Source: Minisyncoccota bacterium
GTDB lineage: Bacteria; Patescibacteriota; Minisyncoccia; Phycocordibacterales; CAJBRS01
Direction: 5' to 3'
Assembly (NCBI GenBank): GCA_035652395.1
Contig: DASRDX010000013.1
Span: 3,255 to 67,254 of the forward strand
Length of the DNA stretch: 64,000 nt
In this document: positions 5,428 to 22,299 of the stretch, in pieces
Numbering within the stretch: the first letter of the stretch is position 1
How the letters are laid out: the number at the start of each line of letters is the position of its first letter
Notes under the pieces: model-generated
Database searches by the model: none
What the model was told of the DNA's origin: nothing
Seen by the model: the letters and a program-made list of their open reading frames with translations, nothing else
Made by a program: the position numbers and the translations under genes

Positions 5428-5503
5428 TGGACGACTCGGCGGGACTCGAACCCGCATAAGAAGTTTAGGAAACTTCTGTCTTATCCGATTAAACGACAAA
5501 TCG
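5428..5503 (-). tRNA. tRNA-Arg (anticodon CCU)
   Basis: T-arm GCGGG-TTCGAGT-CCCGC, acceptor CGATTTG/CGAGTCG, loop TTCCTAA. Confidence 0.6.
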
Positions 5504-5581
5504 TGGAGGCCCCGGCGAGAATCGAACTCGCATACGCTGATTAGAAGTCAGCGGTCCTGTCCGTTGAACGACAGAGCCTTA
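5504..5581 (-). tRNA. tRNA-Arg (anticodon UCU)
   Basis: T-arm GCGAG-TTCGATT-CTCGC, acceptor GGCTCTG/CGGGGCC, loop CTTCTAA. Confidence 0.65.
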
Positions 5582-5593
5582 AAAACTTTTTGG

Positions 5594-5666
5594 CGAGACA
5601 TGAGGGACTTGAACCCCCACCCTACGGTTTTGGAGACCGATATGCTGCCACTAACACCTATGACTC
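5594..5666 (-). tRNA. tRNA-Trp (anticodon CCA)
   Basis: anticodon arm CGGT-CTCCAAA-ACCG identical to the canonical tRNA-Trp arm; T-loop TTCAAGT; one acceptor mismatch. Confidence 0.6.
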
Positions 5667-5676
5667 GCGTTAAACT

Positions 5677-5751
5677 TGGAGCGGTCGGCGGGACTCGAAC
5701 CCGTCTTCTTCAGCTTGGAAGGCTGAGGCACAACCTTTATACCACGCCCGC
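5677..5751 (-). tRNA. tRNA-Gly (anticodon UCC)
   Basis: T-loop TTCGAGT, anticodon stem TCAGC/GCTGA with loop CTTCCAA. Confidence 0.6.
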
Positions 5752-5874
5752 TCGAAAAATTATTTTCTTGTCGGCACGTTCCTTTTCCAGACAAAAAATA
5801 GCGACGTAGAAAGTCAGCGTTCGACGACATTGTAACAAAGTCAGCGATTGGCGACTCGAAAAATTATTTTCTTG
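5751..5874. repeat. 21-bp direct repeat CTCGAAAAATTATTTTCTTG (5751-5770 and 5855-5874)
   Basis: two identical copies bracket a 100-bp spacer immediately upstream of tRNA-Gly; a 10-mer AAAGTCAGCG is also duplicated inside. Confidence 0.8.
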
Positions 5875-6298
5875 AAAGCCTAGCAATCCAATTGTCGGTA
5901 TGTTTCTGTCTTTCCAACATACAGTTTACAGCGAACTCAAAATCCCCATAATTCACATAAGCAAAAGGATTATTATACTGTGAATCCTTGGCCATGTAAA
6001 CTTGCTTTCCATCGCGGCTCCAATCCCAAACATCGTTATGACTGCACTCATACCTGTCGGGAATCAAAAACTCGTCCCAATCGCCACTCGATAAAACTTT
6101 CTTAATGGCTTGGTTTTGAGTGCGACGAACGGCTCTCGCTGCTTGTGTTTTATCCCAACGAGCACTATTGGAGCCGCAAACAAAACTAGCATACGGCTTT
6201 CTATATGAACGACTCATCAGAGACCTCACGGTTAAATCTAATGAATACTCATATACTACAAAAATGGAGCGAAGTACGATAATCGAAATCGTACTCAA
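5864..6298 (-). CDS. hypothetical protein embedded in the tRNA array
   Basis: 144-aa ORF (alternative start MSRSYRK at 6217); no recognisable motifs. Confidence 0.4.
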   Translation of the reverse strand: MSTISIIVLRSIFVVYEYSLDLTVRSLMSRSYRKPYASFVCGSNSARWDKTQAARAVRRTQNQAIKKVLSSGDWDEFLIPDRYECSHNDVWDWSRDGKQVYMAKDSQYNNPFAYVNYGDFEFAVNCMLERQKHTDNWIARLSRK

Positions 6299-6344
6299 AC
6301 CTTGGCAAGGTTTTGTTCTGCCACTAAACTAACTTCGCTAAAAT

Positions 6345-6426
6345 TGGTTGCGGGGGAGGGAATCGAACCCACTTTGGACAAGCCACAAGGTTATGAGTCT
6401 TGTGTGCACCCGGAGCACATCCCCGC
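6345..6426 (-). tRNA. tRNA with CAU anticodon (Met/Ile2-like), atypical
   Basis: acceptor GCGGGGA, T-loop TTCGATT, anticodon loop CTCATAA closed by an A.C pair, 13-nt variable segment; irregular. Confidence 0.5.
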
Positions 6427-6432
6427 TTCAAT

Positions 6433-6507
6433 TGGTCGTTCGGGTTGGAATCGAACCAACCATGCACGCTTTATGAGAACGCCGCCTAGCCGATTAGCTT
6501 CCGAACG
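6433..6507 (-). tRNA. tRNA-Met/fMet/Ile2 (anticodon CAU)
   Basis: acceptor CGTTCGG/CCGAACG perfect, T-arm GTTGG-TTCGATT-CCAAC, loop CTCATAA. Confidence 0.65.
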
Positions 6508-6519
6508 AAATCATAAATT

Positions 6520-6605
6520 TGGTGCGCCTGACAGGACTCGAACCTGTACGCCCGAAGGCACCAGTTTCTAAGACTGGCGTGTCTGCCCAATTCCATCCAC
6601 AGACG
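6520..6605 (-). tRNA. tRNA-Leu (anticodon UAG)
   Basis: type II: acceptor GCGTCTG/CAGGCGC, A73, loop CTTAGAA, variable arm TGCCTTCGGGCGT. Confidence 0.75.
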
Positions 6606-6609
6606 CAAA

Positions 6610-6685
6610 ATGGAGGCGTAGAAGGGAGTCGAACCCTCGTTCTCAGCTTGAAAGGCTGATGTCCTGGCCATTAGACGACTTCGCC
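6610..6685 (-). tRNA. tRNA-Glu (anticodon UUC)
   Basis: T-arm GAGGG-TTCGACT-CCCTT, anticodon stem TCAGC/GCTGA with loop CTTTCAA. Confidence 0.65.
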
Positions 6686-6695
6686 ATTATCCAAT

Positions 6696-6769
6696 TGGTG
6701 ACCCTGAGCGGTACTGACCCGCTGTTCTTAGATTGAGAATCTAATGTCCTGCCTTTAGACGACAGGGCC
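6696..6769 (-). tRNA. tRNA-Glu (anticodon CUC)
   Basis: acceptor GGCCCTG/CAGGGTC, D-arm TCGTCTAAAGGCAGGAC (Glu-like), loop TTCTCAA; unusual T-loop GTCAGTA. Confidence 0.55.
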
Positions 6770-6770
6770 T

Positions 6771-6845
6771 TGGCGGTGCTACTGGGAATCGAACCCAGAC
6801 TTCAGCCGTGACAGGGCCGTGTCGTTACCAACTGACCCTAGCACC
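6771..6845 (-). tRNA. tRNA-Asp (anticodon GUC)
   Basis: acceptor GGTGCTA/TAGCACC perfect, T-arm CTGGG-TTCGATT-CCCAG, loop CTGTCAC. Confidence 0.7.
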
Positions 6846-6847
6846 GT

Positions 6848-6923
6848 TGGAGCTTCGTGAAAGAATCGAACTTTCACTTCACCCTTACCAAGGGCGCGTT
6901 CTACCATTGAACTAACAAAGCGT
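6848..6923 (-). tRNA. tRNA-Thr (anticodon GGU)
   Basis: acceptor GCTTTGT/ACGAAGC, D-arm GTTC-AATGGTA-GAAC, loop TTGGTAA. Confidence 0.7.
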
Positions 6924-6966
6924 ACCATGAAACTTTTATTTTGTCAACTAAAAACTTAGCGATTTT

Positions 6967-7040
6967 TGGAGCTTCGTCGTGGAATCGAACCACGGCTCGC
7001 GGTTTACGAAACCGCTGTCATGCCACTAGACCAACAAAGC
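6967..7040 (-). tRNA. tRNA-Thr (anticodon CGU)
   Basis: acceptor GCTTTGT/ACGAAGC, T-arm CGTGG-TTCGATT-CCACG, loop TTCGTAA. Confidence 0.7.
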
Positions 7041-7052
7041 AAACTTAAAAAT

Positions 7053-7127
7053 TGGAGCACAATGTTGGATTTGAACCAACTCCCGCCGTTTACAAAACGG
7101 CCATTCTACCAATTAAACTAATCGTGC
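7053..7127 (-). tRNA. tRNA-Thr (anticodon UGU)
   Basis: acceptor GCACGAT/ATTGTGC, T-arm GTTGG-TTCAAAT-CCAAC, loop TTTGTAA. Confidence 0.7.
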
Positions 7128-7160
7128 ATTATTTTACGACACTTTAAAAATTTCAAAATT

Positions 7161-7237
7161 TGGCTCCAGCCCTGGGACTCGAACCCAGACCTTCATGGTT
7201 AACAGCCAAGCGTCCTGCCAAATTGGACCAGACTGGA
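7161..7237 (-). tRNA. tRNA-Asn (anticodon GUU)
   Basis: acceptor TCCAGTC/GGCTGGA, D-arm GTCC-AATTTGGCA-GGAC, T-arm CTGGG-TTCGAGT-CCCAG, loop CTGTTAA. Confidence 0.65.
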
Positions 7238-7341
7238 ATAAAAAGCAAGGCAACAAGCGTTATAAGTCTTTTTTCACACTAGAAGAAGTATCTCATAACT
7301 ACGGCACTTGCTATTTCTCTGCACTGCTGCATTATAACTAT

Positions 7342-7416
7342 TGGAGGACCGCAAGGGATTTGAACCCTTAATTATGCGTTCGAAGCGCATTGGTTTATCC
7401 GTTAGCCTAACAGTCC
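7342..7416 (-). tRNA. tRNA-Arg (anticodon UCG)
   Basis: acceptor GGACTGT/GCGGTCC, T-arm AAGGG-TTCAAAT-CCCTT, anticodon stem ATGCG/CGCAT with loop CTTCGAA. Confidence 0.65.
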
Positions 7417-7423
7417 TAAAAAT

Positions 7424-7498
7424 TGGAAGGCCGTGCGGGAGTCGGACCCGCGTCTGCGGATTCGTAGTCCGCTGTCTTTTCCTCTAAACGAACAGCCT
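7424..7498 (-). tRNA. tRNA-Arg (anticodon ACG)
   Basis: acceptor AGGCTGT/ACGGCCT, T-arm GCGGG-TCCGACT-CCCGC, loop CTACGAA. Confidence 0.6.
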
Positions 7499-7500
7499 TT

Positions 7501-7576
7501 TGGTACGCCGTAATGGAATCGAACCATTCCTTCTGGTTTGTAGGACCAGCGCATACTACCAGTTTGCTAACAGCGT
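7501..7576 (-). tRNA. tRNA-Val (anticodon UAC)
   Basis: acceptor ACGCTGT/ACGGCGT, T-arm AATGG-TTCGATT-CCATT, loop CCTACAA (C33 is unusual). Confidence 0.55.
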
Positions 7577-7577
7577 A

Positions 7578-7653
7578 TGGTGGACGAAACAGGCTCTGCC
7601 CCTGCCGCCTCCGCATTGCAAGTGCGGCGCTCTCCTGAATGAGCTACTCGCCC
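7578..7653 (-). tRNA. tRNA-Ala (anticodon UGC) with non-canonical T-loop
   Basis: perfect 76-nt cloverleaf: acceptor GGGCGAG/TTCGTCC with G3:U70, D-arm GCTC-ATTCAGGA-GAGC, anticodon arm CCGCA-CTTGCAA-TGCGG, T-arm GCAGG-GGCAGAG-CCTGT, A73, CCA; no GTTCGA motif. Confidence 0.6.
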
Positions 7654-7762
7654 AAAATGAATCTCCTCTATAATAAGCTTGAGTCCCAAACAACAAGATT
7701 CGGACTCTCCACACCTAACACAAGAATACGCCCGTTTGTATTCCTGAGTGTAATCCCAAACT

Positions 7763-7836
7763 TGGTACTCCACCAAGGACTCGAACCTTGACGAGACGCT
7801 AATCAGGCATCCATGCTACCACTACATCAGCGGAGT
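7763..7836 (-). tRNA. tRNA-Ile (anticodon GAU)
   Basis: acceptor ACTCCGC/GTGGAGT, T-arm CAAGG-TTCGAGT-CCTTG, anticodon stem GATGC/GCGTC with loop CTGATTA. Confidence 0.65.
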
Positions 7837-7965
7837 ACGAAAAATTCAAGCCGATACTTTTTACGCCTCGGACTAATTGAACGACTTCCTCTCAACGGGC
7901 GCTGCGCGGTCTGCACACTAACTTTCTCAAAAAATATTTAATCAAGCAAACCCAACGCCAGAATA

Positions 7966-8280
7966 TTACTGGCCAAGGAAACGGGCGTTGGTTACAGGGT
8001 TTGGGACTGGCTGTGTCAGCGTAAAAGTCAAAAACACCGGACTTGATTTCTGAGCCAGATTATCAACCGCATAAATAGCGACCGCCTTACCGCCTGGGTT
8101 CGCGTATTGAAGAACCAACGGCGCGGCATCGGTAGGAGTAGTTTTTACGTCCGCTCCGTCAGGTCTCGGCGCTGTTCCTACAACATTATTTGACAAATCC
8201 GCATCCCAAACTTCAAAATGGTCAAAAACAATTTGCGGGTCGGATGCGGTCCAATCCCACGCTATTTTAGCATTTAACAT
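7966..8280 (-). CDS. hypothetical protein embedded in the tRNA array
   Basis: 104-aa ORF with RBS GAGGGAAAC; hairpin CCAACGCC...GGCGTTGG plus T-run downstream. Confidence 0.4.
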   Translation of the reverse strand: MLNAKIAWDWTASDPQIVFDHFEVWDADLSNNVVGTAPRPDGADVKTTPTDAAPLVLQYANPGGKAVAIYAVDNLAQKSSPVFLTFTLTQPVPNPVTNARFLGQ

Positions 8281-8335
8281 GTTTCCCTCAGCCCTTTTGT
8301 AAAGGGGACTTTTTAAAAATGACTGCGAAACAAAT

Positions 8336-8427
8336 TGGTGGAGAAGGCAGGATTCGAACCTACAGTATCCACATTGGGATGCCGGGGGTTACAGCCCGGT
8401 AGGGCGACCTGTTGCCCCAACCTCTCC
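8336..8427 (-). tRNA. tRNA-Tyr (anticodon GUA)
   Basis: type II, 92 nt: acceptor GGAGAGG/CTTCTCC, A73, T-arm GTAGG-TTCGAAT-CCTGC, loop CTGTAAC. Confidence 0.65.
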
Positions 8428-8498
8428 ATTAAACTTGCTTTACGTAAATTTTATAAACCAAAGTTCCATTCGGAATATAACGGCTCGCGCTTAAAATT

Positions 8499-8578
8499 TG
8501 GTCGCCCTGGGAAGATTTGGATACTTCCAACCCCGACGCTTAAAAGGCGTGTGCTCTTACCAATTGAGCTACAAGGCG
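8499..8578 (-). tRNA. tRNA-Lys (anticodon UUU)
   Basis: acceptor CGCCTTG/CAGGGCG, D-arm GCTC-AATTGGTAA-GAGC, loop CTTTTAA; enlarged T-loop. Confidence 0.55.
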
Positions 8579-8584
8579 AAAAAT

Positions 8585-8659
8585 TGGTAGTCCGCGACGG
8601 ATTCAAACCGTCACCTATCTCCTTAAGAGGGAGTAATGCCGTCATAACACCTGCGGACT
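8585..8659 (-). tRNA. tRNA-Lys (anticodon CUU)
   Basis: acceptor AGTCCGC/GCGGACT perfect, T-arm GACGG-TTTGAAT-CCGTC, loop CTCTTAA. Confidence 0.65.
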
Positions 8660-8710
8660 AAAAATTTTGTTGGGAACAACTCTCCGTTTGTTCCTTCTAT
8701 CACACAAAAT

Positions 8711-8799
8711 TGGTACTCGATGAAGGAATCGAACCTTCCAGCAAGGGTAATCTGCCCCGACGCTTTATAAGAGCGTGCTGCGGACCGCCGCTATCGAGT
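8711..8799 (-). tRNA. type II tRNA with anticodon UAU (atypical; identity unclear)
   Basis: acceptor ACTCGAT/ATCGAGT perfect, A73, T-arm GAAGG-TTCGATT-CCTTC, perfect anticodon stem ACGCT/AGCGT with loop CTTATAA, about 21-nt variable arm. Confidence 0.55.
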
Positions 8800-8803
8800 A
8801 AAC

Positions 8804-9040
8804 TTAAATTTGCTGTACAGGAGCGGGCTTACCGCGCAAAATTCCTTTCTGAATCATCTGCTCCGGCGTAAAAACATTTGGGTCAAATCTATTTTCATGG
8901 CCCAATAAATACTTCGGAGTTAAAGTGTGCCTGTCCGATTCGGGCAACTTACCCGACCTCATTTGCCTGGGTATATTGTAATGCGGCATATTGCCTCTTG
9001 ATAATCGAATTGGTGCGCTGCGAGAGAATCGAACTCCCAC
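8804..9040 (-). CDS. hypothetical protein
   Basis: 78-aa ORF between tRNAs; start uncertain (internal ATG at 8989). Confidence 0.25.
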   Translation of the reverse strand: MGVRFSRSAPIRLSRGNMPHYNIPRQMRSGKLPESDRHTLTPKYLLGHENRFDPNVFTPEQMIQKGILRGKPAPVQQI

Positions 9041-9098
9041 GCCGTTTTAAGGCCGAAGATTTTAAGTCTCCTGCGTCTGCCTGTTCCGCCAGCAGCGC
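9011..9098 (-). tRNA. tRNA-Leu (anticodon UAA)
   Basis: type II: acceptor GCGCTGC/GCAGCGC perfect, A73, T-arm GGGAG-TTCGATT-CTCTC, loop CTTAAAA. Confidence 0.75.
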
Positions 9099-9104
9099 AA
9101 AATT

Positions 9105-9191
9105 TGGTGCCTTTGGAGGGAATCGAACCCCCACGGGACTGTGCCCACCGCGTTTTGAGTGCGGCGCGTCTGCCTGTTCCACCACAAAAGC
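9105..9191 (-). tRNA. tRNA-Leu (anticodon CAA)
   Basis: type II: acceptor GCTTTTG/CAAAGGC, A73, T-arm GGGGG-TTCGATT-CCCTC, loop CTCAAAA. Confidence 0.65.
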
Positions 9192-9192
9192 A

Positions 9193-9266
9193 TGGCCCCT
9201 ATCCGTGGAATCGAACCACGACTACCTGTTCTTCAGACAGGGGTGCGGCCACTACACCAAACAGGG
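9193..9266 (-). tRNA. tRNA-Phe (anticodon GAA)
   Basis: acceptor CCCTGTT/GATAGGG, T-arm CGTGG-TTCGATT-CCACG, anticodon stem CCTGT/ACAGG with loop CTGAAGA. Confidence 0.65.
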
Positions 9267-9336
9267 ACAGAAACTTTGACTTTCTGAGAATCTAGAATGG
9301 CCCGCTTCATGCAGCAAGCCGAATACGGGCGACTGC

Positions 9337-9564
9337 TTAAAGCTTTCTTCGGGCCTTTCTTCCACCATATAATTCCGCATGGCCTCCCCAAACACTTTCG
9401 CGTGCCTCATGTGCCCCAAGGCCCGTTTCCAAAAGACGGCAGTACTTACGAAGGGCAACAATTGCTACTGCCGCGCTCTCTGGGTCATCCATGATTTCCG
9501 ACTCTAACGCCGATGCTTCTTGACGTTCTTCAAAATCAAGCTCAGCTACGGATTCCGTAATCAT
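9337..9564 (-). CDS. hypothetical acidic protein
   Basis: 75-aa ORF with RBS AAGGGG; preceded by a 26-aa ORF (9574-9651) with RBS AAGGAAG. Confidence 0.3.
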   Translation of the reverse strand: MITESVAELDFEERQEASALESEIMDDPESAAVAIVALRKYCRLLETGLGAHEARESVWGGHAELYGGRKARRKL

Positions 9565-9895
9565 CATTGGCCCCTTAACTCTTTTCCTTCAAAAGGCGAA
9601 CCAACTCCGAGTCCGACGTTGGAACGTGCTCGAATTGTTTACGGTCTGCCATGCCTTAAACTTCCTTAACGCTGTAATTATCAGGCTCGAACTTGCGGCC
9701 CTCAACCTGAGATTTTGCTTGCTGCAAAGCGGCTTGAGGGGTTTCGGCCTCGGCTTCAATCTTTATCTTCTGAGTCAAGGTAATTTTATACGTTTTCAAT
9801 TTTTTATCCTTTCAGCCTTGAGGGCCGTGGGTTGAAGGTAAGGAGTAGTAGAAAACCTCACGGCCCTCACTCTGCGCTTTACTTTACCACGCAAC

Positions 9896-9937
9896 CCGAA
9901 AACTTGTCAAGAACTATTTTCGGGTTTTTTCCCGCTG
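9896..9937 (+). terminator. intrinsic terminator-like hairpin
   Basis: ACCCGAAAA-loop-TTTTCGGGT followed by TTTTTT; a second hairpin CCCGCTGGCGCGGG and a T10 run lie just downstream. Confidence 0.4.
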
Positions 9938-10040
9938 GCGCGGGCTTAAACCGGGCATGTTTTTTTTTTAATTGTAGCCTCGACTACGCCCAGCATAACT
10001 CTTCGATAAAAAATCTACAACAACTCTTAAAATTTGTCAA

Positions 10041-10116
10041 CAGTTTTTTTTGGGGTGAAGAGTGGGAATCGAACCCTACACTGACTCTTTCACAGAGAGC
10101 CATGCTGCCGTTACAT
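10041..10116 (-). tRNA. tRNA-His-like (anticodon GUG), degenerate
   Basis: T-loop GGG-TTCGATT-CCC, anticodon stem GCTCT/AGAGT with loop CTGTGAA, C at discriminator as expected for His; weak T-stem and acceptor pairing. Confidence 0.45.
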
Positions 10117-10137
10117 CATCCACACCTCGGTTTAATT

Positions 10138-12710: not shown

Positions 12711-13381
12711 CACTCCGACCGCGCCAGTGACAGCATTTTGATGTTAAGTCTTTTATTTTCAGTAACCGAATTCTGTCACAAAATGCCGTCAGTAGTGTGG
12801 GAGACACACTTTCCAATATCCCTATCATCATTTATTAATAGGCGAAGAAAAAACGAAAATAATAGTAAACATATTTATTTGCAATTACTTACAGACGATA
12901 AAATTTGCATATGGGTGCCATTTTTATATAAAAAATAATTGATTTTTTGGTCAAAAAATAGGTGTCTGTCTCCCTCTTAGGACAGAATCTTGGGACAGAA
13001 TTTGTACGTTGAAAACAAAAGACTTAATTCTGTCCAAGCATTTCCAAAAATTGACCAATTTTCGCAATCAGAAAATTTCACATTTTTCTATCGAAGGGCG
13101 GTCTCGATTCGATGTGGCAAAACTCGCCACCAAATTAGTAACCGTTTAGACACATTCGTTATCCACCGATTGCTGCGCTTCGCCTAACAGCGGGCATCAG
13201 GATGTTCGCCAGGACGGGCACCATCGGCCAAAAGAGCGCCTAGGACGTTCGTAATTCTGTTTTAAGCGCTCTCCCTTCATTCGCCTGTCGCAATCGTTCT
13301 AATAGGCTCTAATTGCGTTTTGACAAAAAGTGTCATGTTCGGGAAATAGAAGTACTATCAAAAATCAGTACCAAAGTACTA

Positions 13382-13410
13382 TTTACAATTAAATCTTCCT
13401 ACGATATTCT
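13382..13410 (+). promoter_or_regulatory. sigma70-like promoter TTTACA-17-TATTCT with upstream AGTACT elements
   Basis: hexamers spaced 17 bp; AAGTACTAT...AAAGTACTATT at 13351-13384; drives the first plus-strand gene. Confidence 0.5.
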
Positions 13411-13674: not shown

Positions 13675-13867
13675 CACGCTCTGCCGCGTCTGTGTTTTAT
13701 CCATCTTTAATAAGCCGTTTTGGCACGGACGCTTATTATACGCATAGACCGATATGTAAAATAAGCGACAGGACACGGCAGAAGTACCACCAAAAAATCG
13801 GTACCAAAGTACTATTTACAAAATTAAATTCCTATCGCATCATTCACATCGGCAGGGAGAAACAGCA

Positions 13868-15369: not shown

Positions 15370-17241
15370 ATGAAATTAACCTATCACGCGGAACGCAATC
15401 GCTTTGAGGCCGTGCTTGCCACGGGCAATGCTTGGCGAGCGGACTATCAGGCAGTCAAGGGTGCTGGTTTTCGGTGGGACGCGAATATAAAGAGCGTGTG
15501 GTTTACCACGGATTACAACGTGGCGGCGAAGATGGCGAAATATGCCGACGCGGCGGCGGCTAAAATTCTTAATGAAATGTCGCAGCGGGCCGCCGAAAGC
15601 CAAAAAGCCAGCCGTGCCACCGACGCGGCCGTTGAAATTCCTTCGCCTAGCGGTCTTAATTATCTTTCTTATCAAAAAGCGGGCATAGCCTACGCCATCC
15701 ATCGGCCACATACGCTCATTGCGGACGAGATGGGACTCGGCAAGACCATTCAAGCCATCGGCATTGCAAACGCCACTGAAGCAAAGCGTGTCCTAGTTGT
15801 TTGTCCCGCTAGTCTCAAACTTAATTGGATGCGTGAATTTACGAAATGGAACACGATTCCCAATCGAACGATTGCGGTCGCTAACGGTGAATTTCCTTCG
15901 GCTGACGTTGTTATAATCAATTACGACATTCTGAGAAAGCACGAATTCGCTATCCGCTCTATCAATTGGGATTTGCTAATTTGCGATGAGTGCCACTATC
16001 TCAAGAACTACAAAGCGGCGCGAACCCGTCAGGTTTTAGGCGGTGGCAAAGGTGGTGACCGCATAGAACCTATACCAGCGAAACGCAAAATTTTTCTGAC
16101 CGGTACCCCGATTGTCAATCGGCCAATCGAACTGTGGCCACTATTAAAATCTCTAGAACCAAACGGACTAGGACGAAATTGGAAGTACTACGTTTCACGT
16201 TATTGCGACGCGCACCATAATGGCTTTGCGTTGGACGTTTCTGGCGCGAGCAATCTAGAGGAATTGCAGCAAAAGCTTCGGTCGTCCATTATGATTCGTC
16301 GGCTGAAAAAGGATGTATTGGCAGACTTGCCTCCGAAGCGCCGTCAAATCATTGTGCTGGCGTCCGATGGTTTGGATGAAATTATCGAGCGTGAGAAAAA
16401 AGCCTACGAAGCTTTCGAACAGGCTGAATTGGAGTCCAAAACGGCGGCTTTCTCCGTATTGGCCAATCTTCGCCATGACACGGCGAAAGCAAAAATCCCG
16501 TTTGTCTTGGAGCACATTGAGCAAACTTTGGACGAGACAGACAAATTGGTGGTGATGTGCCATCATCATGATGTGGTGGACGCGATTGCCCAAAAATTCT
16601 CCGGTCAATGTGTAACGGTAGATGGCCGTACAGCGGCAGAAGATAGACAAATTGCCGTGGACAAATTTCAAAATGACAAGTCTTGCCGTTTGTTCGTCGG
16701 AACCATTAAAGCGGCTGGCGTCGGATTAACCTTGACGGCTGCATCTACCGTAATATTTGCGGAACTGGATTGGGTGCCCGGCAATGTCACACAGGCTGAA
16801 GACAGATTGCATCGCATCGGGCAAACCAACCCTGTATTGGTGCAACATCTTGTTTTGGACAAATCCTTGGACGCCAGAATGGTCGAAATAATCGTAGAGA
16901 AGCAAGCCAACATCGAACAGGCTCTCGATAAAGTAATTCCTTCGGAGCCACAAATTTATTCGTTCGCGCCAACAGAGAATAATGCTGCTCCAAAGCAAGA
17001 TACGCCAAATTTAACGGATGCCCAAATTGATGCTATTCATCGAGCACTCAAAATATTGGCTAATGCGTGTGACGGGGCACATTTGCTTGATGAATGTGGT
17101 TTTAACAAATTGGACAGCGCGTTTGGCAAGTCTTTGGCAAATGCGCCTCGCCTCACGCAAAAGATGGCACATTGTGGACTTAAGCTAGTTCGTAAATATC
17201 ATCGTCAAATACCACAAGATATTTTGTGTGTACTAGCTTGA
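15370..17241 (+). CDS. SNF2/RAD54-family DEAD-like helicase
   Basis: motifs LIADEMGLGKTIQAIG (I), DECHYLKN (II), LTGTP (III) and a helicase-C block with QAEDRLHRIGQ. Confidence 0.85.
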   Translation: MKLTYHAERNRFEAVLATGNAWRADYQAVKGAGFRWDANIKSVWFTTDYNVAAKMAKYADAAAAKILNEMSQRAAESQKASRATDAAVEIPSPSGLNYLSYQKAGIAYAIHRPHTLIADEMGLGKTIQAIGIANATEAKRVLVVCPASLKLNWMREFTKWNTIPNRTIAVANGEFPSADVVIINYDILRKHEFAIRSINWDLLICDECHYLKNYKAARTRQVLGGGKGGDRIEPIPAKRKIFLTGTPIVNRPIELWPLLKSLEPNGLGRNWKYYVSRYCDAHHNGFALDVSGASNLEELQQKLRSSIMIRRLKKDVLADLPPKRRQIIVLASDGLDEIIEREKKAYEAFEQAELESKTAAFSVLANLRHDTAKAKIPFVLEHIEQTLDETDKLVVMCHHHDVVDAIAQKFSGQCVTVDGRTAAEDRQIAVDKFQNDKSCRLFVGTIKAAGVGLTLTAASTVIFAELDWVPGNVTQAEDRLHRIGQTNPVLVQHLVLDKSLDARMVEIIVEKQANIEQALDKVIPSEPQIYSFAPTENNAAPKQDTPNLTDAQIDAIHRALKILANACDGAHLLDECGFNKLDSAFGKSLANAPRLTQKMAHCGLKLVRKYHRQIPQDILCVLA

Positions 17242-17308
17242 CAAGCGTGGGGCATTGCGCGAAGTTATGTACAATGGCGAATCCACACAGGAGATTATAT
17301 AACACGAA

Positions 17309-17521
17309 ATGGCTAAAACGGAAACCGCCTTGAAAATTGCATTCGATTCCAATCCGAATGGCTGGACACTACAATCTTTTGTTAATGCTGTACGAGAGGG
17401 TTACAAACTTATTTATAAGAATCGGCTGAAATTTGGAGTGTGGGGGCATTCTATCGCAGATTTGGCATTAGAAGGTTTCCGCAGGAGAGGCAATAAATTT
17501 TTTCTTTTTGTAGGGTCGTAA
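17309..17521 (+). CDS. hypothetical protein
   Basis: 70-aa ORF. Confidence 0.35.
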   Translation: MAKTETALKIAFDSNPNGWTLQSFVNAVREGYKLIYKNRLKFGVWGHSIADLALEGFRRRGNKFFLFVGS

Positions 17522-17861: not shown

Positions 17862-17898
17862 TTTCGGAAAGGGCCTAAAAATCAGTACTAAAGTACTA

Positions 17899-17927
17899 TT
17901 GATTTTAATCGAGAATCGGTTTATTCT
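17899..17927 (+). promoter_or_regulatory. promoter TTGATT-17-TATTCT with upstream AGTACT pair
   Basis: same architecture as the other AGTACT-associated promoters; upstream of the DUF932 gene. Confidence 0.5.
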
Positions 17928-17994
17928 TGTTTCACCACGCAGGGAAGCGGAAAAACATTGAAAGAGCCGAACAGGCTGGAAAGGAAGTTAAAAA

Positions 17995-18798
17995 ATGATT
18001 AGAAACGGCAACCGCAATTACACCCCACTGACCGACGAACAGATACAGGTATTCGCTCCGAGTGCTTTTGCTGGGCAAGCTTGGCGGGAGCGTAGTGAGC
18101 GGTATGCATTTATTCCCACTTCCGAAGTGATTGACGCGATGCGAAATAACGGGTTTTATCCTATTCAAGCCAGCCAATCTAATTCTCGCATCGAAGAAAA
18201 GCATTTTTTCACAAAACATATGATACGTTTCCAATCCCAAGCCGGCGATATGACAAAGGTCGGTGATTCCAAGTTAGAGTTGGTTTTGGTCAATTCCCAT
18301 GACGGTACTTCAGCGTATAAGCTTATGCTTGGGGTATTTCGTCTAGTTTGTTCTAATGGAATGATTGTAAGTGATGGTATGGCGGAATCAATCCATGTTC
18401 GTCACATGGGGAATATCGTCCAAGATGTTTTGACGGGAAGCTTTGAGTTGATTAAGCGTGCTCCTATAGTTGAATCGGCAATTGCGGCATGGCGGCAAAT
18501 TACATTGACTGAAGCAGAACAGCAATCCTTTGCCGAACAAGCCTTGACACTTCGTTATCCCGAAGGTTCGCCTATTACAGCGGAAAAAGCCCTTCGCGTT
18601 CGCCGTTATGACGACAACGGCAGCGACCTGTGGCATGTGTTTAATCGTGTGCAAGAGGCGGTCGTTCGTGGCGGAGACCGTTACTATAATAATGGCCGAC
18701 GCAATAAAACAAGAGAAGTTCGCGGCATAGACCAAAATATCAACCTTAACAGGTCCCTTTGGTCCTTGGCTGAGCAAGTAGCCATATCGAAAATGTAA
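17995..18798 (+). CDS. DUF932 (phage/plasmid-like) protein
   Basis: motifs LVNSHDGTSAYKL and FRLVCSNGM characteristic of the DUF932/TIGR03299 family. Confidence 0.65.
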   Translation: MIRNGNRNYTPLTDEQIQVFAPSAFAGQAWRERSERYAFIPTSEVIDAMRNNGFYPIQASQSNSRIEEKHFFTKHMIRFQSQAGDMTKVGDSKLELVLVNSHDGTSAYKLMLGVFRLVCSNGMIVSDGMAESIHVRHMGNIVQDVLTGSFELIKRAPIVESAIAAWRQITLTEAEQQSFAEQALTLRYPEGSPITAEKALRVRRYDDNGSDLWHVFNRVQEAVVRGGDRYYNNGRRNKTREVRGIDQNINLNRSLWSLAEQVAISKM

Positions 18799-18859
18799 CT
18801 CTCTTCTCACGGCAGGCGCTAGCCGAGAATAGTGCCAAAAAATTTTAGGAATAAAAAAT

Positions 18860-19057
18860 ATGAATAACGGAACTTTTTGTGGTCTTTTAACCTTATTGTT
18901 TATTGCGCTTAAAATTCTTGGGTACATTCATTGGAGTTGGTGGTGGGTGCTCTCCCCATTGTGGATTCCGTTGGTGCTTTTCGTTGTGGTTACGGTTATA
19001 ACACTCGTCTTTATGGGCGTAAGTGTCTCTAAATTACACAAATGGATGAAAAAATGA
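18860..19057 (+). CDS. small two-TM membrane protein
   Basis: 65 aa, two hydrophobic helices, Trp-rich. Confidence 0.45.
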   Translation: MNNGTFCGLLTLLFIALKILGYIHWSWWWVLSPLWIPLVLFVVVTVITLVFMGVSVSKLHKWMKK

Positions 19058-19491
19058 AGATTACAATCAAATCCCAAACAGGCGAAGTGCTCTATACATG
19101 CGAAGCTGAAAGTGTACGGGATGCAGTAGAAGACGCGATTAAGGCGGGTGTGAAATTTGCTAATGCAAATTTTAGGGGCGCAAACTTCAGGGGTGCGGAC
19201 CTTAGCGGCGCACACTTCAAGGGTGCGGACTTCAGGAACGCAAATCTTAGGGGCACAAACTTCAGGGGTGCGGACCTTAGAGACGCGGACATCAGAGGCG
19301 CAAACCTTATCGGCGCAAACCTTAGCGATGCAAATCTCAGAGATGCGGACCTCAGTGACTCGAATCTCATTGGCGCAAACCTTATTGGCGCAAATCTTAG
19401 CGGTGTATATTTCAGGTTTGCGAACCTCAGTGGTGCAAATCTCAGTGACGCAGACCTTAGCGACGCAGACTTCAGCGGCGCAGACTTTTAG
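19042..19491 (+). CDS. pentapeptide-repeat protein
   Basis: about 20 tandem A(N/D)(L/F)xx pentapeptides (ANFRGANFRGADLSGAHFKGADFRNANLRG...). Confidence 0.85.
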   Translation: MDEKMKITIKSQTGEVLYTCEAESVRDAVEDAIKAGVKFANANFRGANFRGADLSGAHFKGADFRNANLRGTNFRGADLRDADIRGANLIGANLSDANLRDADLSDSNLIGANLIGANLSGVYFRFANLSGANLSDADLSDADFSGADF

Positions 19492-19518
19492 GCGCATATT
19501 TTTTGAAAGAGACGAAAA

Positions 19519-19824
19519 ATGAAGATTACAATTAAATCTCAAACGGGTGAAGTGCTCTATACATGCAAAGCTGAGAATATACGGGACGCAGTAGAGACCG
19601 CCATTAAGGCGGGTGTGAAATTAGTTAATGCAAACCTTAGAGGCACACATTTAAATGGTGCGGACCTAAGCGGTGCAAATCTTAGAGGCGTAAATCTCAG
19701 CGGCACATATCTCAGTGGGGCAATCGTCGAAATTGTTCCGCGCATTTCCGTGTTGGAATTAATCATCCACGGTAAGCGGATTGGAGAAGGGCAGATTGCA
19801 TCGGCTTTAAAGCAATTGCGTTAA
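19519..19824 (+). CDS. pentapeptide-repeat protein (shorter paralog)
   Basis: N-terminus MKITIKSQTGEVLYTC.AE..RDAVE.AIKAGVK is nearly identical to the previous ORF, followed by pentapeptide repeats. Confidence 0.8.
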   Translation: MKITIKSQTGEVLYTCKAENIRDAVETAIKAGVKLVNANLRGTHLNGADLSGANLRGVNLSGTYLSGAIVEIVPRISVLELIIHGKRIGEGQIASALKQLR

Positions 19825-19834
19825 GGAAAGGCGG

Positions 19835-20059
19835 ATGGTAAAAATGCGTTCAAGAAACATGAAAAGTCTGATTGGTATGGCGAAGCTTATTCGGGCCGAA
19901 AGGATGCGATTTGAGAGCGAGTATCGGGAAAGATTGCGGCAAATTCGTGAGCGGCAGATAGCCGCCGAACTTCGAGAAGAGGGAGACGATTGCACGGCAA
20001 GCGTAAGTGAAATGACACGCGAATTTATTGAAGCGGACCATTTTGGGAGAGACCATTGA
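19835..20059 (+). CDS. hypothetical protein
   Basis: 74-aa charged, coiled-coil-like ORF. Confidence 0.4.
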   Translation: MVKMRSRNMKSLIGMAKLIRAERMRFESEYRERLRQIRERQIAAELREEGDDCTASVSEMTREFIEADHFGRDH

Positions 20060-20316
20060 TTACTTCTGAAAGAGTACAAGAATGGTTAGAGGAGTACGGC
20101 GAAGTTGATTTGCTAAACGAAGCAGCTTGCCGTTCTTTGGCCGAAAAATTGGCCAAACGCATTAACAGCGAGATTTTGCATCTTGAGAATGATAATAAGA
20201 AAAAACACATTCAAGAGAGCGGACCTAGGTGTAAAAATTGTGGGGCATTTACAACCTATATGCGTGTTTATACACACGGGTTGTGTATGCGATGTGAAAA
20301 TTTCAAAGGAAAGTAG
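20056..20316 (+). CDS. hypothetical zinc-ribbon protein
   Basis: C-terminal CKNCG...CMRC. Confidence 0.4.
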   Translation: MITSERVQEWLEEYGEVDLLNEAACRSLAEKLAKRINSEILHLENDNKKKHIQESGPRCKNCGAFTTYMRVYTHGLCMRCENFKGK

Positions 20317-20336
20317 GTATTGGTTTTGGGAGGAAA

Positions 20337-20832
20337 AGTACTATTAAAAAATGAAACTAAAGTACTATTGTATTTAATCCTAGATTGGTGTACTATGGTT
20401 TTAATAAGTGGTATCAACCCGCTAGACCTCGTACGAGTCATAAGTGCGGGATATGATGGCCGGAAGCGGAAGGCCCAAGACCGCTTATTAAGTGGGGCGG
20501 GGTAGATGCCCGCCCTACTTAAAATGGGAAAAATGTAAAAGTCTGATTGGGTATGCGTATTTATTGTGTATATGCGATGGGATGAAAAGTACTATTAAAA
20601 AATGAAACTAAAGTACTATTGTATTTAATTCGAGATTGATATATTATGGTTTTTGAGAACGACACCTTTACCGAAATTCAAAGGGGTTTTCGGACGCTAC
20701 TTAAAAGTACCGAAACGCGGGCGTAGCGTTGGATGCGGGTTCGACTCCCGCCGTTCTTAAAAAATTTTTGCTGTGACGCGTTTTAGTAGGGTGGGGACGC
20801 TCACCCTACTTAAAATGGGAAAAATATAAAAG
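20337..20832 (+). promoter_or_regulatory. tandemly duplicated promoter-leader module (two copies of about 250 bp)
   Basis: near-identical 55-bp AAAAGTACTATTAAAAAATGAAACTAAAGTACTATTGTATTTAAT at 20337 and 20586; promoters TTGTAT-17-TACTAT (20368-20396) and TTGTAT-17-TATTAT (20619-20647); each leader ends in a covarying hairpin (20490-20520, 20785-20810) followed by CTTAAAATGGGAAAAATNTAAAAG. Confidence 0.55.
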
Positions 20833-21903: not shown

Positions 21904-22299
21904 ATGACAGAATACGAAAACGTTAAATGCCAATTGCAATTTAAGGGCTGCAAAGGCCCGGCGGGATATTTACGTCGCAGGCAGTTTGCTCAATCGGGAC
22001 CTTGGTTGGATGCTTGCGAAAATTGTGCGCGGGTGCCATATGAAGTGCCGAAGCAGTTTCAGCAAACCGAGCCTACGGCGGAGCCTAATACGGCAGAGCC
22101 TAATACGGCAGAGCCTAACACGGCAGAGCCTAACACGGCAGAGCCTAACACTACAGAGCCTAACACGGCGGAGCCTAATACTAGTCCTACTTCTAAACTT
22201 ATCCAATGTTCTGTGGAGGGGTGCAAAAATCAGTTTCCGCGCAGTCGGGGCAGGTATCCTCAAAAATTTTGTCTCGAACATAGGAGTATGCCGCGATGA
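21904..22299 (+). CDS. Cys-rich (zinc-finger-like) protein with internal (TAEPN)n repeat
   Basis: CxxC pairs at both ends; central 7.5 x 15-bp tandem repeat. Confidence 0.5.
   Translation: MTEYENVKCQLQFKGCKGPAGYLRRRQFAQSGPWLDACENCARVPYEVPKQFQQTEPTAEPNTAEPNTAEPNTAEPNTAEPNTTEPNTAEPNTSPTSKLIQCSVEGCKNQFPRSRGRYPQKFCLEHRSMPR
22069..22182 (+). repeat. 15-bp tandem repeat GAGCCTAA(T/C)ACGGCA, about 7.5 copies
   Basis: seen directly; in-frame within CDS 21904-22299. Confidence 0.9.

What the first reader, a model, noticed from the sequence alone, without database searches (positions are those of the whole stretch)
17995..19824. DUF932 protein followed by a small membrane protein and two pentapeptide-repeat paralogs
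A DUF932 gene is followed by a 65-aa two-TM protein and then two pentapeptide-repeat proteins. The two PRPs share an almost identical 40-aa N-terminal domain but differ in repeat number (149 aa versus 101 aa). This is a recent duplication with divergence.

Pentapeptide-repeat proteins such as Qnr, MfpA, McbG and AlbG are DNA mimics that protect or inhibit gyrase. In a phage they are candidates for anti-restriction or anti-defence DNA mimicry, or for topoisomerase manipulation.

The module has its own promoter (17899-17927). That makes it an early or anti-defence candidate locus.
Basis: partly seen in the sequence, partly recalled or inferred. Interest (0 to 1): 0.55.

Follow-up and report, generated by a model that had tools for sequence, protein, structure and literature searches.

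The report
Phage early operon with paired pentapeptide proteins
An uncultured ~93-kb phage carries a small promoter-headed operon encoding a DUF932 protein, a tiny membrane protein and two related beta-helix (pentapeptide-repeat) proteins; the genes are real but the grouping is specific to this phage and nothing shows that the repeat proteins are DNA mimics, so it is a fairly ordinary accessory-gene locus.

Summary
All four genes exist at the stated coordinates. DUF932 is 17995-18798, a 65-aa two-TM protein is 18860-19057, and the two pentapeptide-repeat proteins (PRPs) are 19054-19491 and 19519-19824.

- PRP1 most likely starts at 19054 (145 aa), overlapping the TM gene's stop as ATGA.
- The shared N-terminus is 33/40 identical, with dS about 0.45, so the duplication is old rather than recent.
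- PRP2 has only about 8 repeats plus an orphan 31-aa tail.

The proposed promoter is weak by the generic sigma-70 consensus. It is nevertheless one of five copies of a phage-specific promoter element, and a related phage has the same element upstream of its DUF932. The transcription unit probably has six genes (17995-20316).

DUF932, TM65 and the PRPs are not linked anywhere else: 0 of 20 DUF932 loci and 0 of 14 TM65 loci have the partner genes.

The PRPs belong to a common "capped" PRP subfamily that usually carries C-terminal domains; both window copies lack them. They fall far below the Qnr and MfpA cut-offs. PRP1 is only mildly acidic and PRP2 is basic, so the beta-helix fold is supported but DNA mimicry and anti-defence are not.

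Verdict: a lineage-specific early accessory operon, of low to moderate interest.

The parts
17876..17932 (+). Phage-specific promoter element: AAAAATCAGTACTAAAGTACTAT box, then -35 TTGATT (17899-17904), a 17-nt spacer and -10 TATTCT (17922-17927)
   Evidence: Repeat family D4/D6. The 15-mer GTACYAAAGTACTAT gives 9 hits at up to 3 mismatches against 2.4+-1.6 in shuffles, and 0 of 100 shuffles reach 9. Five + strand intergenic copies share the layout box | -35 | 17 nt | -10. The same architecture lies upstream of DUF932 in the related phage L044. The site fails the generic sigma-70 scan at 8/12.
17995..18798 (+). DUF932 protein, 267 aa, pI 9.0; first gene of the unit
   Evidence: PF06067 E 1.2e-44 and phrog_12094 E 1e-76. 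The AF2 model has pLDDT 90.9. It has no PDB fold neighbour (best E 0.078); in BFVD only DUF932, DUF945 and TIGR03299 proteins match. There are 33 invariant residues, including H75, E95, N100, H102, D103, C119, N121 and H137.
18860..19057 (+). TM65: 65-aa, two-TM, basic (pI 10) small membrane protein
   Evidence: phrog_1374 E 4e-18. Hydrophobic peaks at residues 5-23 and 28-55. Its stop overlaps the PRP1 start as ATGA.
19054..19491 (+). PRP1, 145 aa: N-terminal cap (19054-19143) plus 23 pentapeptide units (19144-19488), with no C-terminal domain
   Evidence: PF00805 E 1.6e-45. Repeat register. Solved PRPs match at E 1e-55. pI 4.75, net -5. The cap is shared with many PRPs.
19249..19263 (+). One 15-nt pentapeptide unit (RGTNF) that is polymorphic between strains; strain L001 lacks it, through a deletion between AGGGG direct repeats
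   Evidence: DNA alignment of the window against L001. L001's PRP1 is called at 140 aa.
19519..19824 (+). PRP2, 101 aa: cap (19519-19608), about 8 pentapeptide units or two coils (19609-19728), and an orphan tail of ~31 aa (19729-19821)
   Evidence: PF00805 E 1.6e-13. In the AF2 model residues 1-70 have pLDDT 88-98 and the tail 44-57. Only PRP2 itself covers the tail in two database searches. pI 9.7.
19835..20059 (+). o74: 74-aa charged protein with no family; probably part of the same transcription unit
   Evidence: It starts 10 nt after the PRP2 stop and has a good SD sequence. No Pfam or PHROG hit.
20056..20316 (+). o86: 86-aa protein with CxxC...CxxC (zinc-ribbon-like); last gene of the unit
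   Evidence: It overlaps o74 by 4 nt and is followed by a 523-nt gap that holds the next promoters. No family hit.

Best explanation
The locus is a lineage-specific accessory operon. It sits at the head of the replication and nucleotide-metabolism gene block of an uncultured ~93-kb, tRNA-rich phage.

A phage-specific promoter (an AAGTACTAT box abutting TTGATT-17-TATTCT, at 17876-17932) most likely drives six tightly packed genes: DUF932, TM65, PRP1, PRP2, o74 and o86. These genes are neighbours by history, not a conserved system. DUF932 is the conserved, promoter-proximal gene. The slot downstream of it holds different small genes in each related phage.

[quoted passage not shown] In this phage both copies lack the C-terminal domain.

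They arose by an old tandem duplication, and both copies have since been kept under purifying selection. Repeat number has changed by slippage in the 15-nt units, which is still visible as a one-unit polymorphism between strains.

Inferred mechanism: each PRP acts as a rigid protein-binding scaffold made early in infection. It would bind and sequester or modulate a host (or phage) protein by surface complementarity rather than by catalysis.
- PRP1 (about 5.75 coils, ~28 A, acidic C-terminal end) could occupy a nucleic-acid-binding groove. It is co-translated with the membrane protein TM65.
- PRP2 (two coils, basic) cannot be a DNA mimic and must have a different partner or a regulatory role.

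Shown: gene structure, fold, family placement, promoter recurrence, lack of conserved linkage, and the selection pattern. Inferred: timing of expression, protein binding, and the targets.
For: **Gene structure and packing**
- Gaps within the unit are 61, -4, 27, 10 and -4 nt. It is flanked by 133-nt and 523-nt gaps that hold promoter elements.

**Promoter class**
- The element recurs five times on the + strand in intergenic DNA and is enriched over shuffles.
- The same AGTACTAT-box promoter precedes DUF932 in the related phage L044, and TTGACA-17-TACACT precedes it in L046.

**Genomic context**
- SNF2 helicase lies upstream. A clamp-like protein, endonuclease VII, dNMP kinase, primase, RNR, a family A DNA polymerase (closest annotated hits: DNA polymerase I) and a helicase lie downstream, all on the + strand.

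**No conserved linkage**
- 15 viral DUF932 loci, 5 metagenome loci at 54-59% identity and one further gene table have no TM65 or PRP gene.
- 14 TM65-homologue loci have no PRP.

**PRP family placement**
- The cap is conserved in many 200-250-aa PRPs with several types of C-terminal domain, including PF19062.
- PRPs occur in 472 phage records.
- Capped PRPs lie as single genes among early small genes upstream of primase/helicase in Ralstonia phage RsoP1IDN and in the E. coli phage vB_EcoP_P64441.

**Fold:**

**Old duplication under purifying selection:** dS 0.44-0.58, dN/dS 0.13-0.26.

**Slippage polymorphism:**
Against: - No expression or interaction data exist, so 'early' and 'protein-binding scaffold' are inferences from position and from what PRPs generally do.
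- The ATGA overlap of TM65 and PRP1 hints at a functional pairing, which the 'unrelated neighbours' view plays down.
- All strains in hand are near-identical, so within-lineage conservation of the arrangement says little.
- The dN/dS estimate rests on only 30-50 codons.
- The generic sigma-70 scan does not call the promoter, and the host and its sigma factors are unknown.
Confidence: 0.55

Rival explanations
1. PRP1 and/or PRP2 are DNA-mimic anti-restriction or anti-defence proteins that occupy the DNA-binding site of a host nuclease or sensor early in infection.
For: - The PRP beta-helix has roughly the diameter of B-DNA (established for MfpA and Qnr; PMC7980463, PMC8145042).
- PRP1 is net acidic (pI 4.75), and its last 1.75 coils carry net -5.
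- The genes lie in a promoter-proximal, variable accessory slot of the kind where anti-defence genes often sit.
Against: - PRP2 is basic (net +5), and the first two coils of PRP1 are net +4.
- Charge is not segregated in a DNA-like way across the four faces.
- PRP1 is only ~28 A long and has no dimerisation helix. Qnr and MfpA act as ~100-A head-to-head dimers (PMC8145042).
- The canonical PRPs McbG and QnrB did not inhibit BREX, and the authors concluded that mimicry alone is not sufficient (PMC7261183).
- No phage PRP with a proven anti-defence role turned up in the literature searches.
Confidence: 0.15
2. The PRPs modulate or protect host DNA gyrase or topoisomerase IV in a Qnr/MfpA-like way, tuning supercoiling for phage replication.
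For: - PRP1 matches QnrB1 and MfpA chains at E 8e-20 and 1e-12 through the repeats.
- The genes lie next to replication genes here and in other phages.
- Small phage-encoded gyrase inhibitors exist, such as Igy and Gip (PMC10886550).
Against: - Curated family cut-offs are missed by a wide margin: Qnr 50.7 against 240 bits, MfpA 42.9 against 360.
- The best PDB matches are designed consensus (beta1) and cyanobacterial PRPs, not Qnr.
- PRP1 has no C-terminal dimerisation helix and 5.75 coils, PRP2 only 2, against the 8-10 coils of Qnr-type proteins.
- No Qnr-type loop interrupts the regular 23-unit repeat register of PRP1.
Confidence: 0.08
3. TM65 and PRP1 (possibly with PRP2) form a membrane-associated complex, for example for superinfection exclusion or envelope remodelling. 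The PRP would be tethered at the inner membrane.
For: - The ATGA overlap implies translational coupling of TM65 and PRP1.
- TM65 is a widespread small phage membrane protein family, phrog_1374.
Against: - None of 14 TM65-homologue loci has a PRP within 4 kb.
- The capped PRPs inspected in cultured phages have no annotated membrane partner.
- 4-nt overlaps are common in tightly packed phage operons (o74/o86 also overlap by 4 nt).
Confidence: 0.07
4. PRP2 is a decaying remnant of the duplication, truncated and with a frameshift-derived tail, and has no function of its own.
For: - It has only about 8 repeats, and the tail is modelled at pLDDT 44-57.
- The tail has no relative in 1.8 to 5.8 billion proteins.
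Against: - The ORF is intact and identical in all 10 contigs.
- The cap shows dN/dS of 0.13-0.26 despite dS of about 0.45.
- It has its own start codon with a plausible SD sequence.
- No alternative frame continues the repeats.
Confidence: 0.1

Closest known systems
Capped phage/bacterial pentapeptide-repeat proteins (N-cap MK-x-x-IK-x-R-x-t-G-x-V-h-F..., PF00805 repeats, C-terminal domain such as PF19062/DUF5758); examples are Ralstonia phage RsoP1IDN gp4 and the PRP of Escherichia phage vB_EcoP_P64441
   Same: - They share the N-terminal beta-hairpin plus helix cap and the same consensus A(D/N)(L/F)xG repeats, at 45-55% identity over the full PRP1 length.
- In these two phages the gene likewise lies among small genes upstream of replication genes.
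- Their function is equally unknown.
   Different: - Relatives are 200-250 aa and carry a C-terminal globular domain of at least four types. PRP1 stops at the last repeat, and PRP2 has two coils and an orphan tail.
- Here there are two tandem paralogues rather than the single gene seen in the four annotated phages inspected.
Qnr / MfpA / McbG / AlbG topoisomerase-protecting PRPs
   Same: They share the right-handed quadrilateral beta-helix built from pentapeptide repeats, and generic sequence similarity through those repeats.
   Different: - Scores are far below the family cut-offs.
- The window PRPs have no C-terminal dimerisation helix, fewer coils and no Qnr loops.
- PRP2 is basic.
- These families have no N-terminal hairpin-helix cap of this type.
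DNA-mimic anti-restriction proteins (T7 Ocr, ArdA, T4 Arn)
   Same: They are small and are early expressed or early transferred. (T7 Ocr and T4 Arn are phage proteins; ArdA is plasmid- or transposon-borne.) The proposed mode of action, occupying a DNA-binding site, is also the same.
   Different: - The folds are unrelated.
- Those proteins are uniformly and strongly acidic, whereas PRP1 is net -5 with a basic half and PRP2 is net +5.
DUF932 (PF06067) / TIGR03299 'phage/plasmid-like protein' family
   Same: The window protein is a clear member (E 1.2e-44), with homologues in Rak2-like jumbo phages, Flavobacterium phages and many metagenomic phages.
   Different: Nothing distinguishes the window copy. 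The family has no known function or solved structure.

Membership tests
Pentapeptide-repeat protein superfamily (PF00805) | At least 8 contiguous A(D/N)LXX pentapeptides above the Pfam gathering score | tested here: met
   PRP1 scores 152.7 bits against a cut-off of 20.2 and has 23 units. PRP2 scores 50.3 bits and has about 8 units, which is borderline for the 8-repeat criterion of PMC8145042.
Pentapeptide-repeat protein superfamily (PF00805) | Right-handed quadrilateral beta-helix fold | tested here: met
   In the PRP2 AF2 model, residues 31-70 have pLDDT 88-95 and superimpose on HetL, NP275, Rfr23 and NleL at rmsd 0.4-2.0 A. PRP1 was not modelled; its residues 37-144 align to solved PRP structures at E 1e-55.
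Qnr family (NF033086) / MfpA (NF000349) | Score above the curated NCBIfam cut-off | tested here: not met
   Qnr 50.7 bits against 240; MfpA 42.9 against 360; every Qnr subfamily scores at most 47 bits against cut-offs of 425-500.
Qnr / MfpA / AlbG / McbG | C-terminal alpha-helix mediating a head-to-head dimer; 8-10 coils | tested here: not met
   PRP1 ends on the repeat ...SGADF with no helix and has 5.75 coils. PRP2 has 2 coils, and its terminal helix 90-100 is modelled only at pLDDT 44-57. The feature definition comes from PMC8145042.
Qnr / MfpA / AlbG / McbG | Binds gyrase or topoisomerase IV and protects against or inhibits poisons | not testable with these tools
   This needs a biochemical assay.
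DNA-mimic proteins (Ocr / ArdA-like) | Extended, predominantly negative surface imitating the phosphate backbone | tested here: not met
   PRP1 is net -5 but its coils 1-2 are net +4. Net charges of the four faces are -2, -4, +2 and +1. PRP2 is net +5 with pI 9.7. These are sequence-level charge counts only; no electrostatic surface was computed.
Capped PRP subfamily with C-terminal domain (e.g. PF19062 DUF5758) | N-terminal MK-x-x-IK...G-x-V-h-F hairpin plus helix cap | tested here: met
   Alignment A1. In the PRP2 model, strands 2-7 and 12-17 and helix 21-30 have pLDDT 97-98.
Capped PRP subfamily with C-terminal domain (e.g. PF19062 DUF5758) | C-terminal globular domain after the repeats | tested here: not met
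   PRP1 has none. The PRP2 tail matches neither PF19062 nor the 'IGC...EW' domain profile (hhalign probability 0.14%).
DUF932 (PF06067) | Score above the Pfam gathering threshold over the full domain | tested here: met
   153.2 bits against 23, covering profile positions 5-227 of 227.
Conserved DUF932-TM-PRP gene module | The same gene neighbourhood recurs in unrelated genomes | tested here: not met
   0 of 20 DUF932 loci and 0 of 14 TM65 loci have the partners. The arrangement occurs only in near-identical strains of this one phage.
Sigma-70-type promoter | Match to TTGACA-N16-18-TATAAT, supported by position or recurrence | tested here: inconclusive
   At 8/12 the site is below the scan threshold. 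It is, however, one of 5 same-strand intergenic copies of a conserved box | -35 | 17 nt | -10 element, which is also conserved upstream of DUF932 in L044. No transcript data exist.

The most novel reading that the evidence does not exclude
PRP1 and PRP2 are minimal, C-domain-less derivatives of the capped phage PRP family. They would act as stand-alone decoys: PRP1 as a short DNA-shaped plug, and PRP2 as a basic partner or a regulator acting through the shared cap. The target would be a host DNA-binding defence protein or a topoisomerase. If so, this would be the first demonstrated phage PRP counter-defence pair, and it would give a function to a very large family of phage PRPs that currently has none.
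Probability: 0.1. Interest if true: 0.6.

Novelty: new member of a known kind. Interest (0 to 1): 0.25.

Why it matters
PRPs are common in phages (472 of about 50,700 phage records match PRP1), yet none has an assigned role. A naturally minimised pair, cap plus bare beta-helix in two sizes and opposite charge, would be a convenient entry point for asking what the scaffold itself binds.

The locus also shows ongoing repeat-number change by slippage. It further defines a phage-specific promoter element with a conserved AAGTACTAT box, which is useful for annotating this uncultured phage group.

As it stands, nothing here changes current understanding. The four genes are ordinary accessory genes of unknown function, and the DNA-mimic idea has no specific support.

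Tried and rejected
1. **Close nucleotide relatives.** Megablast against the phage and plasmid collections found none.
2. **PRP2 tail as a frameshifted continuation of the repeats.** The other two frames hit stop codons within 1 and 28 codons and show no pentapeptide pattern.
3. **PRP2 tail as a remnant of the 'IGC...EW' C-terminal domain of relatives.** hhalign gives probability 0.14%.
4. **PRP2 tail homologues.**
   - phmmer against the 254 proteins collected up to that point, and tblastn and blastn against the window, found only PRP2 itself.
   - The word-indexed search found only itself.
   - In the exhaustive search only PRP2 itself covers residues 1-101. Three repeat-rich hits run partly into the tail.
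5. **DUF932 function from structure.** The model is confident, but there is no PDB fold match. BFVD returns only other proteins of unknown function.
6. **DUF932 function from literature.** Nothing mechanistic was found.
7. **Defence-system models.** PADLOC has no hit for any of the four proteins.
9. **The generic promoter/terminator scan as evidence.** Counts in 15-22 kb are no higher than in shuffles, so it was replaced by the recurrence analysis.
10. **Literature on DUF5758.** No papers were found.
Full report
**1. What is in the sequence**

The window is most of an uncultured phage genome of about 93-95 kb. The same DUF932 protein is encoded on contigs of 92,461-94,778 bases from several metagenomes. 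It has no megablast relative among 50,697 phage records or 72,556 plasmids, and its DNA polymerase is at most 40% identical to that of any cultured phage.

A 32-gene tRNA array lies on the minus strand at 3050-10125. From about 13 kb to 58 kb almost everything is on the plus strand. That block includes an SNF2 helicase (15370-17241), a clamp-like protein, endonuclease VII, dNMP kinase, primase, ribonucleotide reductase, a family A DNA polymerase, a helicase and an exonuclease.

The finding lies near the head of this replication block. All four ORFs are present as described:
- DUF932, 17995-18798 (PF06067, E 1.2e-44).
- A 65-aa protein, 18860-19057, with two hydrophobic segments, belonging to phrog_1374.
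- Two pentapeptide-repeat proteins (PF00805, E 1.6e-45 and 1.6e-13).

**2. Corrections to the observation**

*PRP1 start.* PRP1 most likely starts at ATG 19054 (145 aa), not 19042. PRP2 and the homologues begin MK-x-x-IK. Gene callers chose 19054 in five of six strains. That ATG overlaps the TM65 stop codon as ATGA, which suggests translational coupling.

*Architecture.* PRP1 is a 30-residue cap followed by 23 uninterrupted pentapeptides, and it ends on a repeat. PRP2 is the same cap, about 8 pentapeptides, and a non-repeat tail of ~31 residues.

*Similarity and age.* The first 40 residues are 33/40 identical, with 86% DNA identity. Synonymous divergence on the shared part is 0.44-0.58 and dN/dS is 0.13-0.26. 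The duplication is therefore old, and both caps have been under purifying selection. The estimate rests on only 30-50 codons.

*Ongoing repeat change.* Strain L001 lacks exactly one 15-nt unit (19249-19263). The deletion is flanked by AGGGG direct repeats, a slippage-type event.

**3. The promoter and the transcription unit**

That scan finds no more sites in 15-22 kb than in shuffled sequence.

The site is nevertheless embedded in a 42-57-nt element that recurs on the plus strand in intergenic DNA at 13368, 13801, 17885, 20354 and 20605. Each copy has an AAGTACTAT box (sometimes two, 15 nt apart) directly abutting a -35-like hexamer (TTTACA, TTGATT or TTGTAT). A 17-nt spacer and a -10-like hexamer (TATTCT, CATCAT, TACTAT or TATTAT) follow. 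The 15-mer core gives 9 hits at up to 3 mismatches against 2.4+-1.6 in shuffles, and no shuffle reaches 9.

Comparative data agree. In L044, a related 92.5-kb phage whose DUF932 is 54% identical, the same AGTACTAT-N15-AAGTACTAT | TGCGAA-17-TACACT arrangement lies upstream of DUF932. In L046 a TTGACA-17-TACACT site lies there. I therefore accept the promoter, on recurrence and conservation rather than on consensus strength.

| Junction | Gap (nt) |
|---|---|
| upstream gene (o101) -> DUF932 | 133 (contains the promoter) |
| DUF932 -> TM65 | 61 |
| TM65 -> PRP1 | -4 |
| PRP1 -> PRP2 | 27 |
| PRP2 -> o74 | 10 |
| o74 -> o86 | -4 |
| o86 -> next gene (o81) | 523 (contains the next two promoter copies) |

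The unit is thus DUF932, TM65, PRP1, PRP2, o74 (19835-20059) and o86 (20056-20316, CxxC...CxxC).

**4. Is it a module?**

No. The evidence against conserved linkage is as follows:
- Fifteen DUF932 loci from viral contigs (24-41% identity) have no TM65 or PRP homologue within 5 kb.
- Five loci from metagenomic contigs at 54-59% identity have none either. Three of those contigs are 92-101 kb and probably belong to the same phage group. Downstream of DUF932 each carries different small genes.
- One further contig, for which only a gene table was available, has no Pentapeptide hit.
- Fourteen TM65-homologue loci have no PRP-like ORF within 4 kb.

The juxtaposition occurs only in near-identical strains of this one phage. 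DUF932 is a conserved, promoter-proximal gene that borders a variable accessory slot.

Strain-level variability is also visible just upstream. Other strains carry 1-2.3 kb of extra genes (phrog_18326 paralogues) between SNF2 and o70, and the window's o70 is a fusion ORF left by a deletion.

**5. What the PRPs are**

*How common they are.* PRP1 finds more than 7,200 PRPs in the protein database and PRP genes in 472 phage records.

*Subfamily.* The 30-residue cap is shared by many of them, in both phages and bacteria. Those relatives are typically 200-250 aa. After the repeats they carry a globular C-terminal domain of at least four types, including PF19062/DUF5758, an 'IGC...EW' type, a 'DGSTY.GECAC' type and a 'WHTC.T.HC' type. 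Both window PRPs lack any such domain.

*The PRP2 tail.* Only PRP2 itself covers it in the word-indexed search and in the exhaustive search of 1.84 billion representatives. It matches no frame-shifted repeat and not the 'IGC...EW' profile.

*Position in cultured phages.* In Ralstonia phage RsoP1IDN and in an E. coli phage of the Slopekvirinae, a capped PRP is a single gene among small early genes just upstream of primase and helicase. That is comparable to the position here.

*Tandem PRPs elsewhere.* A 244-kb viral contig has four adjacent PRP-like ORFs (L041).

**6. Fold and charge**

*Fold.* PRP1 residues 37-144 align to solved PRP beta-helices at E 1e-55. The best matches are designed consensus (beta1) and cyanobacterial PRPs; QnrB1 comes at 8e-20 and MfpA at 1e-12. 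The AF2 model of PRP2 is confident for residues 1-70 (pLDDT 88-98). It shows a beta-hairpin (2-7, 12-17), a helix (21-30) and two coils. It is not confident for the tail (pLDDT 44-57). The confident part superimposes on HetL, NP275, Rfr23 and NleL at 0.4-2.0 A over 33-59 residues.

*Charge.* The second criterion, a DNA-like charge, is not met.
- PRP1 has pI 4.75 and net charge -5. Its first two coils are net +4, and only the last 1.75 coils are strongly acidic. Net charges of the four faces are -2, -4, +2 and +1.
- PRP2 has pI 9.7 and net charge +5.

*Size.* PRP1's 5.75 coils correspond to about 28 A, taking 4.8 A per coil (established PRP geometry). Qnr and MfpA act as roughly 100-A head-to-head dimers held by C-terminal helices (PMC8145042), which PRP1 does not have.

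*Family scores.* NCBIfam scores are far below the curated cut-offs: Qnr 50.7 against 240 bits and MfpA 42.9 against 360.

*Literature.* McbG and QnrB did not inhibit BREX, and the authors concluded that mimicry alone is insufficient (PMC7261183). The phage-encoded gyrase inhibitors reviewed in PMC10886550 (Igy, Gip) are ~50-aa peptides, discussed separately from the PRPs. I found no paper that assigns an anti-defence function to a phage PRP.

**7. DUF932**

The family is abundant: 1,693 hits at E <= 1e-10, with members in Rak2-like jumbo phages and Flavobacterium phages.

The AF2 model is confident (pLDDT 90.9, pTM 0.87). It has no significant fold neighbour in the PDB (best E 0.078, TM <= 0.25). 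In BFVD it matches only DUF932, DUF945 and TIGR03299 proteins.

Thirty-three residues are invariant among 55 homologues, including H75, E95, N100, H102, D103, C119, N121 and H137. That pattern looks like a catalytic or metal-binding site, but this is inference only. The literature offers no mechanism.

**8. Best explanation and rivals**

*Best explanation (confidence 0.55).* This is a lineage-specific, promoter-headed accessory operon in a variable slot at the start of the replication block. Its PRPs are C-domain-less members of the common capped phage PRP subfamily, produced by an old tandem duplication and reshaped by repeat slippage. They most likely act as rigid protein-binding scaffolds on host or phage targets. 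Structure, family placement, promoter recurrence and non-linkage are shown. Expression timing and binding are inferred.

*Rivals.*

| Rival | Confidence |
|---|---|
| DNA-mimic anti-defence | 0.15 |
| PRP2 as a decaying relic | 0.10 |
| Qnr-like gyrase modulation | 0.08 |
| TM65-PRP1 membrane complex | 0.07 |

**9. Novelty and score**

The PRPs are new members of a known kind. The absence of a C-terminal domain and the paired, oppositely charged copies are a mild variation on that kind.

Interest is 0.25. The locus is real and tidy, but nothing about it is surprising to a specialist, and the DNA-mimic idea has no specific support.

The most novel reading not excluded is a minimal PRP decoy pair acting against a host DNA-binding defence protein or a topoisomerase. 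I give it a probability of about 0.1.

Noticed in passing
window 20327-20832: Two tandem units without convincing ORFs. Each has a copy of the AAGTACTAT-box promoter (76 nt, 92% identical), a different insert of about 100 or 140 nt, and a strong terminal hairpin followed by the conserved box CCCTACTTAAAATGGGAAAAAT.
- Unit 1 folds with z = -4.2, and the 3' hairpin of unit 2 with z = -4.9.
- Unit 2 contains a tRNA-type T-arm (GCGGG-TTCGACT-CCCGC, 20727-20743) with a possible acceptor stem (GAGAACG / CGTTCTT), and a weak Rfam tmRNA hit (16.7 bits against a gathering score of 47).
- ARAGORN calls nothing here.

These may be small RNAs or a degenerate tRNA-like gene.
   Followed up: partly
window 13360-13401, 13793-13834, 17876-17932, 20345-20401, 20596-20652; L044 ~4895-4960: A phage-specific promoter class with a conserved AAGTACTAT box (often duplicated 15 nt apart) abutting the -35 hexamer. 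It is conserved in a related phage whose DUF932 is only 54% identical. The box contains the palindrome AGTACT and may be an operator or activator site.
   Followed up: partly
window 17242-17521 versus L001/L002/L003/L005/L006: Strain polymorphism between SNF2 and o70. Other strains carry 1-2.3 kb of extra genes (170, 199, 96 and 106 aa; two are phrog_18326 paralogues). The window's 70-aa ORF (17309-17521) is a fusion left by a deletion, and strain L004 shares it.
   Followed up: partly
window 3050-10125 (- strand): An array of 32 tRNA genes covering nearly all amino acids. One call (8336-8427) has a four-base anticodon (gtaa) and an undetermined identity.
   Followed up: no
window 17995-18798: The DUF932 model is confident (pLDDT 90.9) but has no structural neighbour in the PDB. 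A set of invariant H/E/N/H-D/C/N/H residues suggests an uncharacterised enzyme fold.
   Followed up: partly
window 22060-22194: A tandem repeat of period 15 nt (seven overlapping 45-nt windows in register, about nine units, encoding repeats of T-A-E-P-N) inside ORF 21904-22299. It is a second repeat-bearing gene close to the PRPs.
   Followed up: no
window 33292-36801: The ribonucleotide reductase large subunit is unusually long (1169 aa). It matches the RNR profiles in 2-3 separate stretches and has a weak match to an endonuclease family (phrog_4645) at residues 668-688. It may carry an intein or a homing-endonuclease insertion.
   Followed up: no
window 58489-59811: A 440-aa ORF matches transposase families (phrog_506, E 6e-30) at the point where GC skew and strand bias change.
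   Followed up: no
window 15370-17241: The SNF2 helicase upstream of the locus resembles the helicase components of defence systems (ZorD, DpdE, DrmD) in PADLOC, at E down to 1.5e-47. This probably reflects the shared SNF2 core rather than a defence role.
   Followed up: no
P0001 / P0135 (database names): NCBI holds the identical PRP2 and DUF932 proteins under 'MAG TPA... [Candidatus Paceibacterota bacterium]'. That is most likely a phage contig binned into a bacterial MAG.
   Followed up: no
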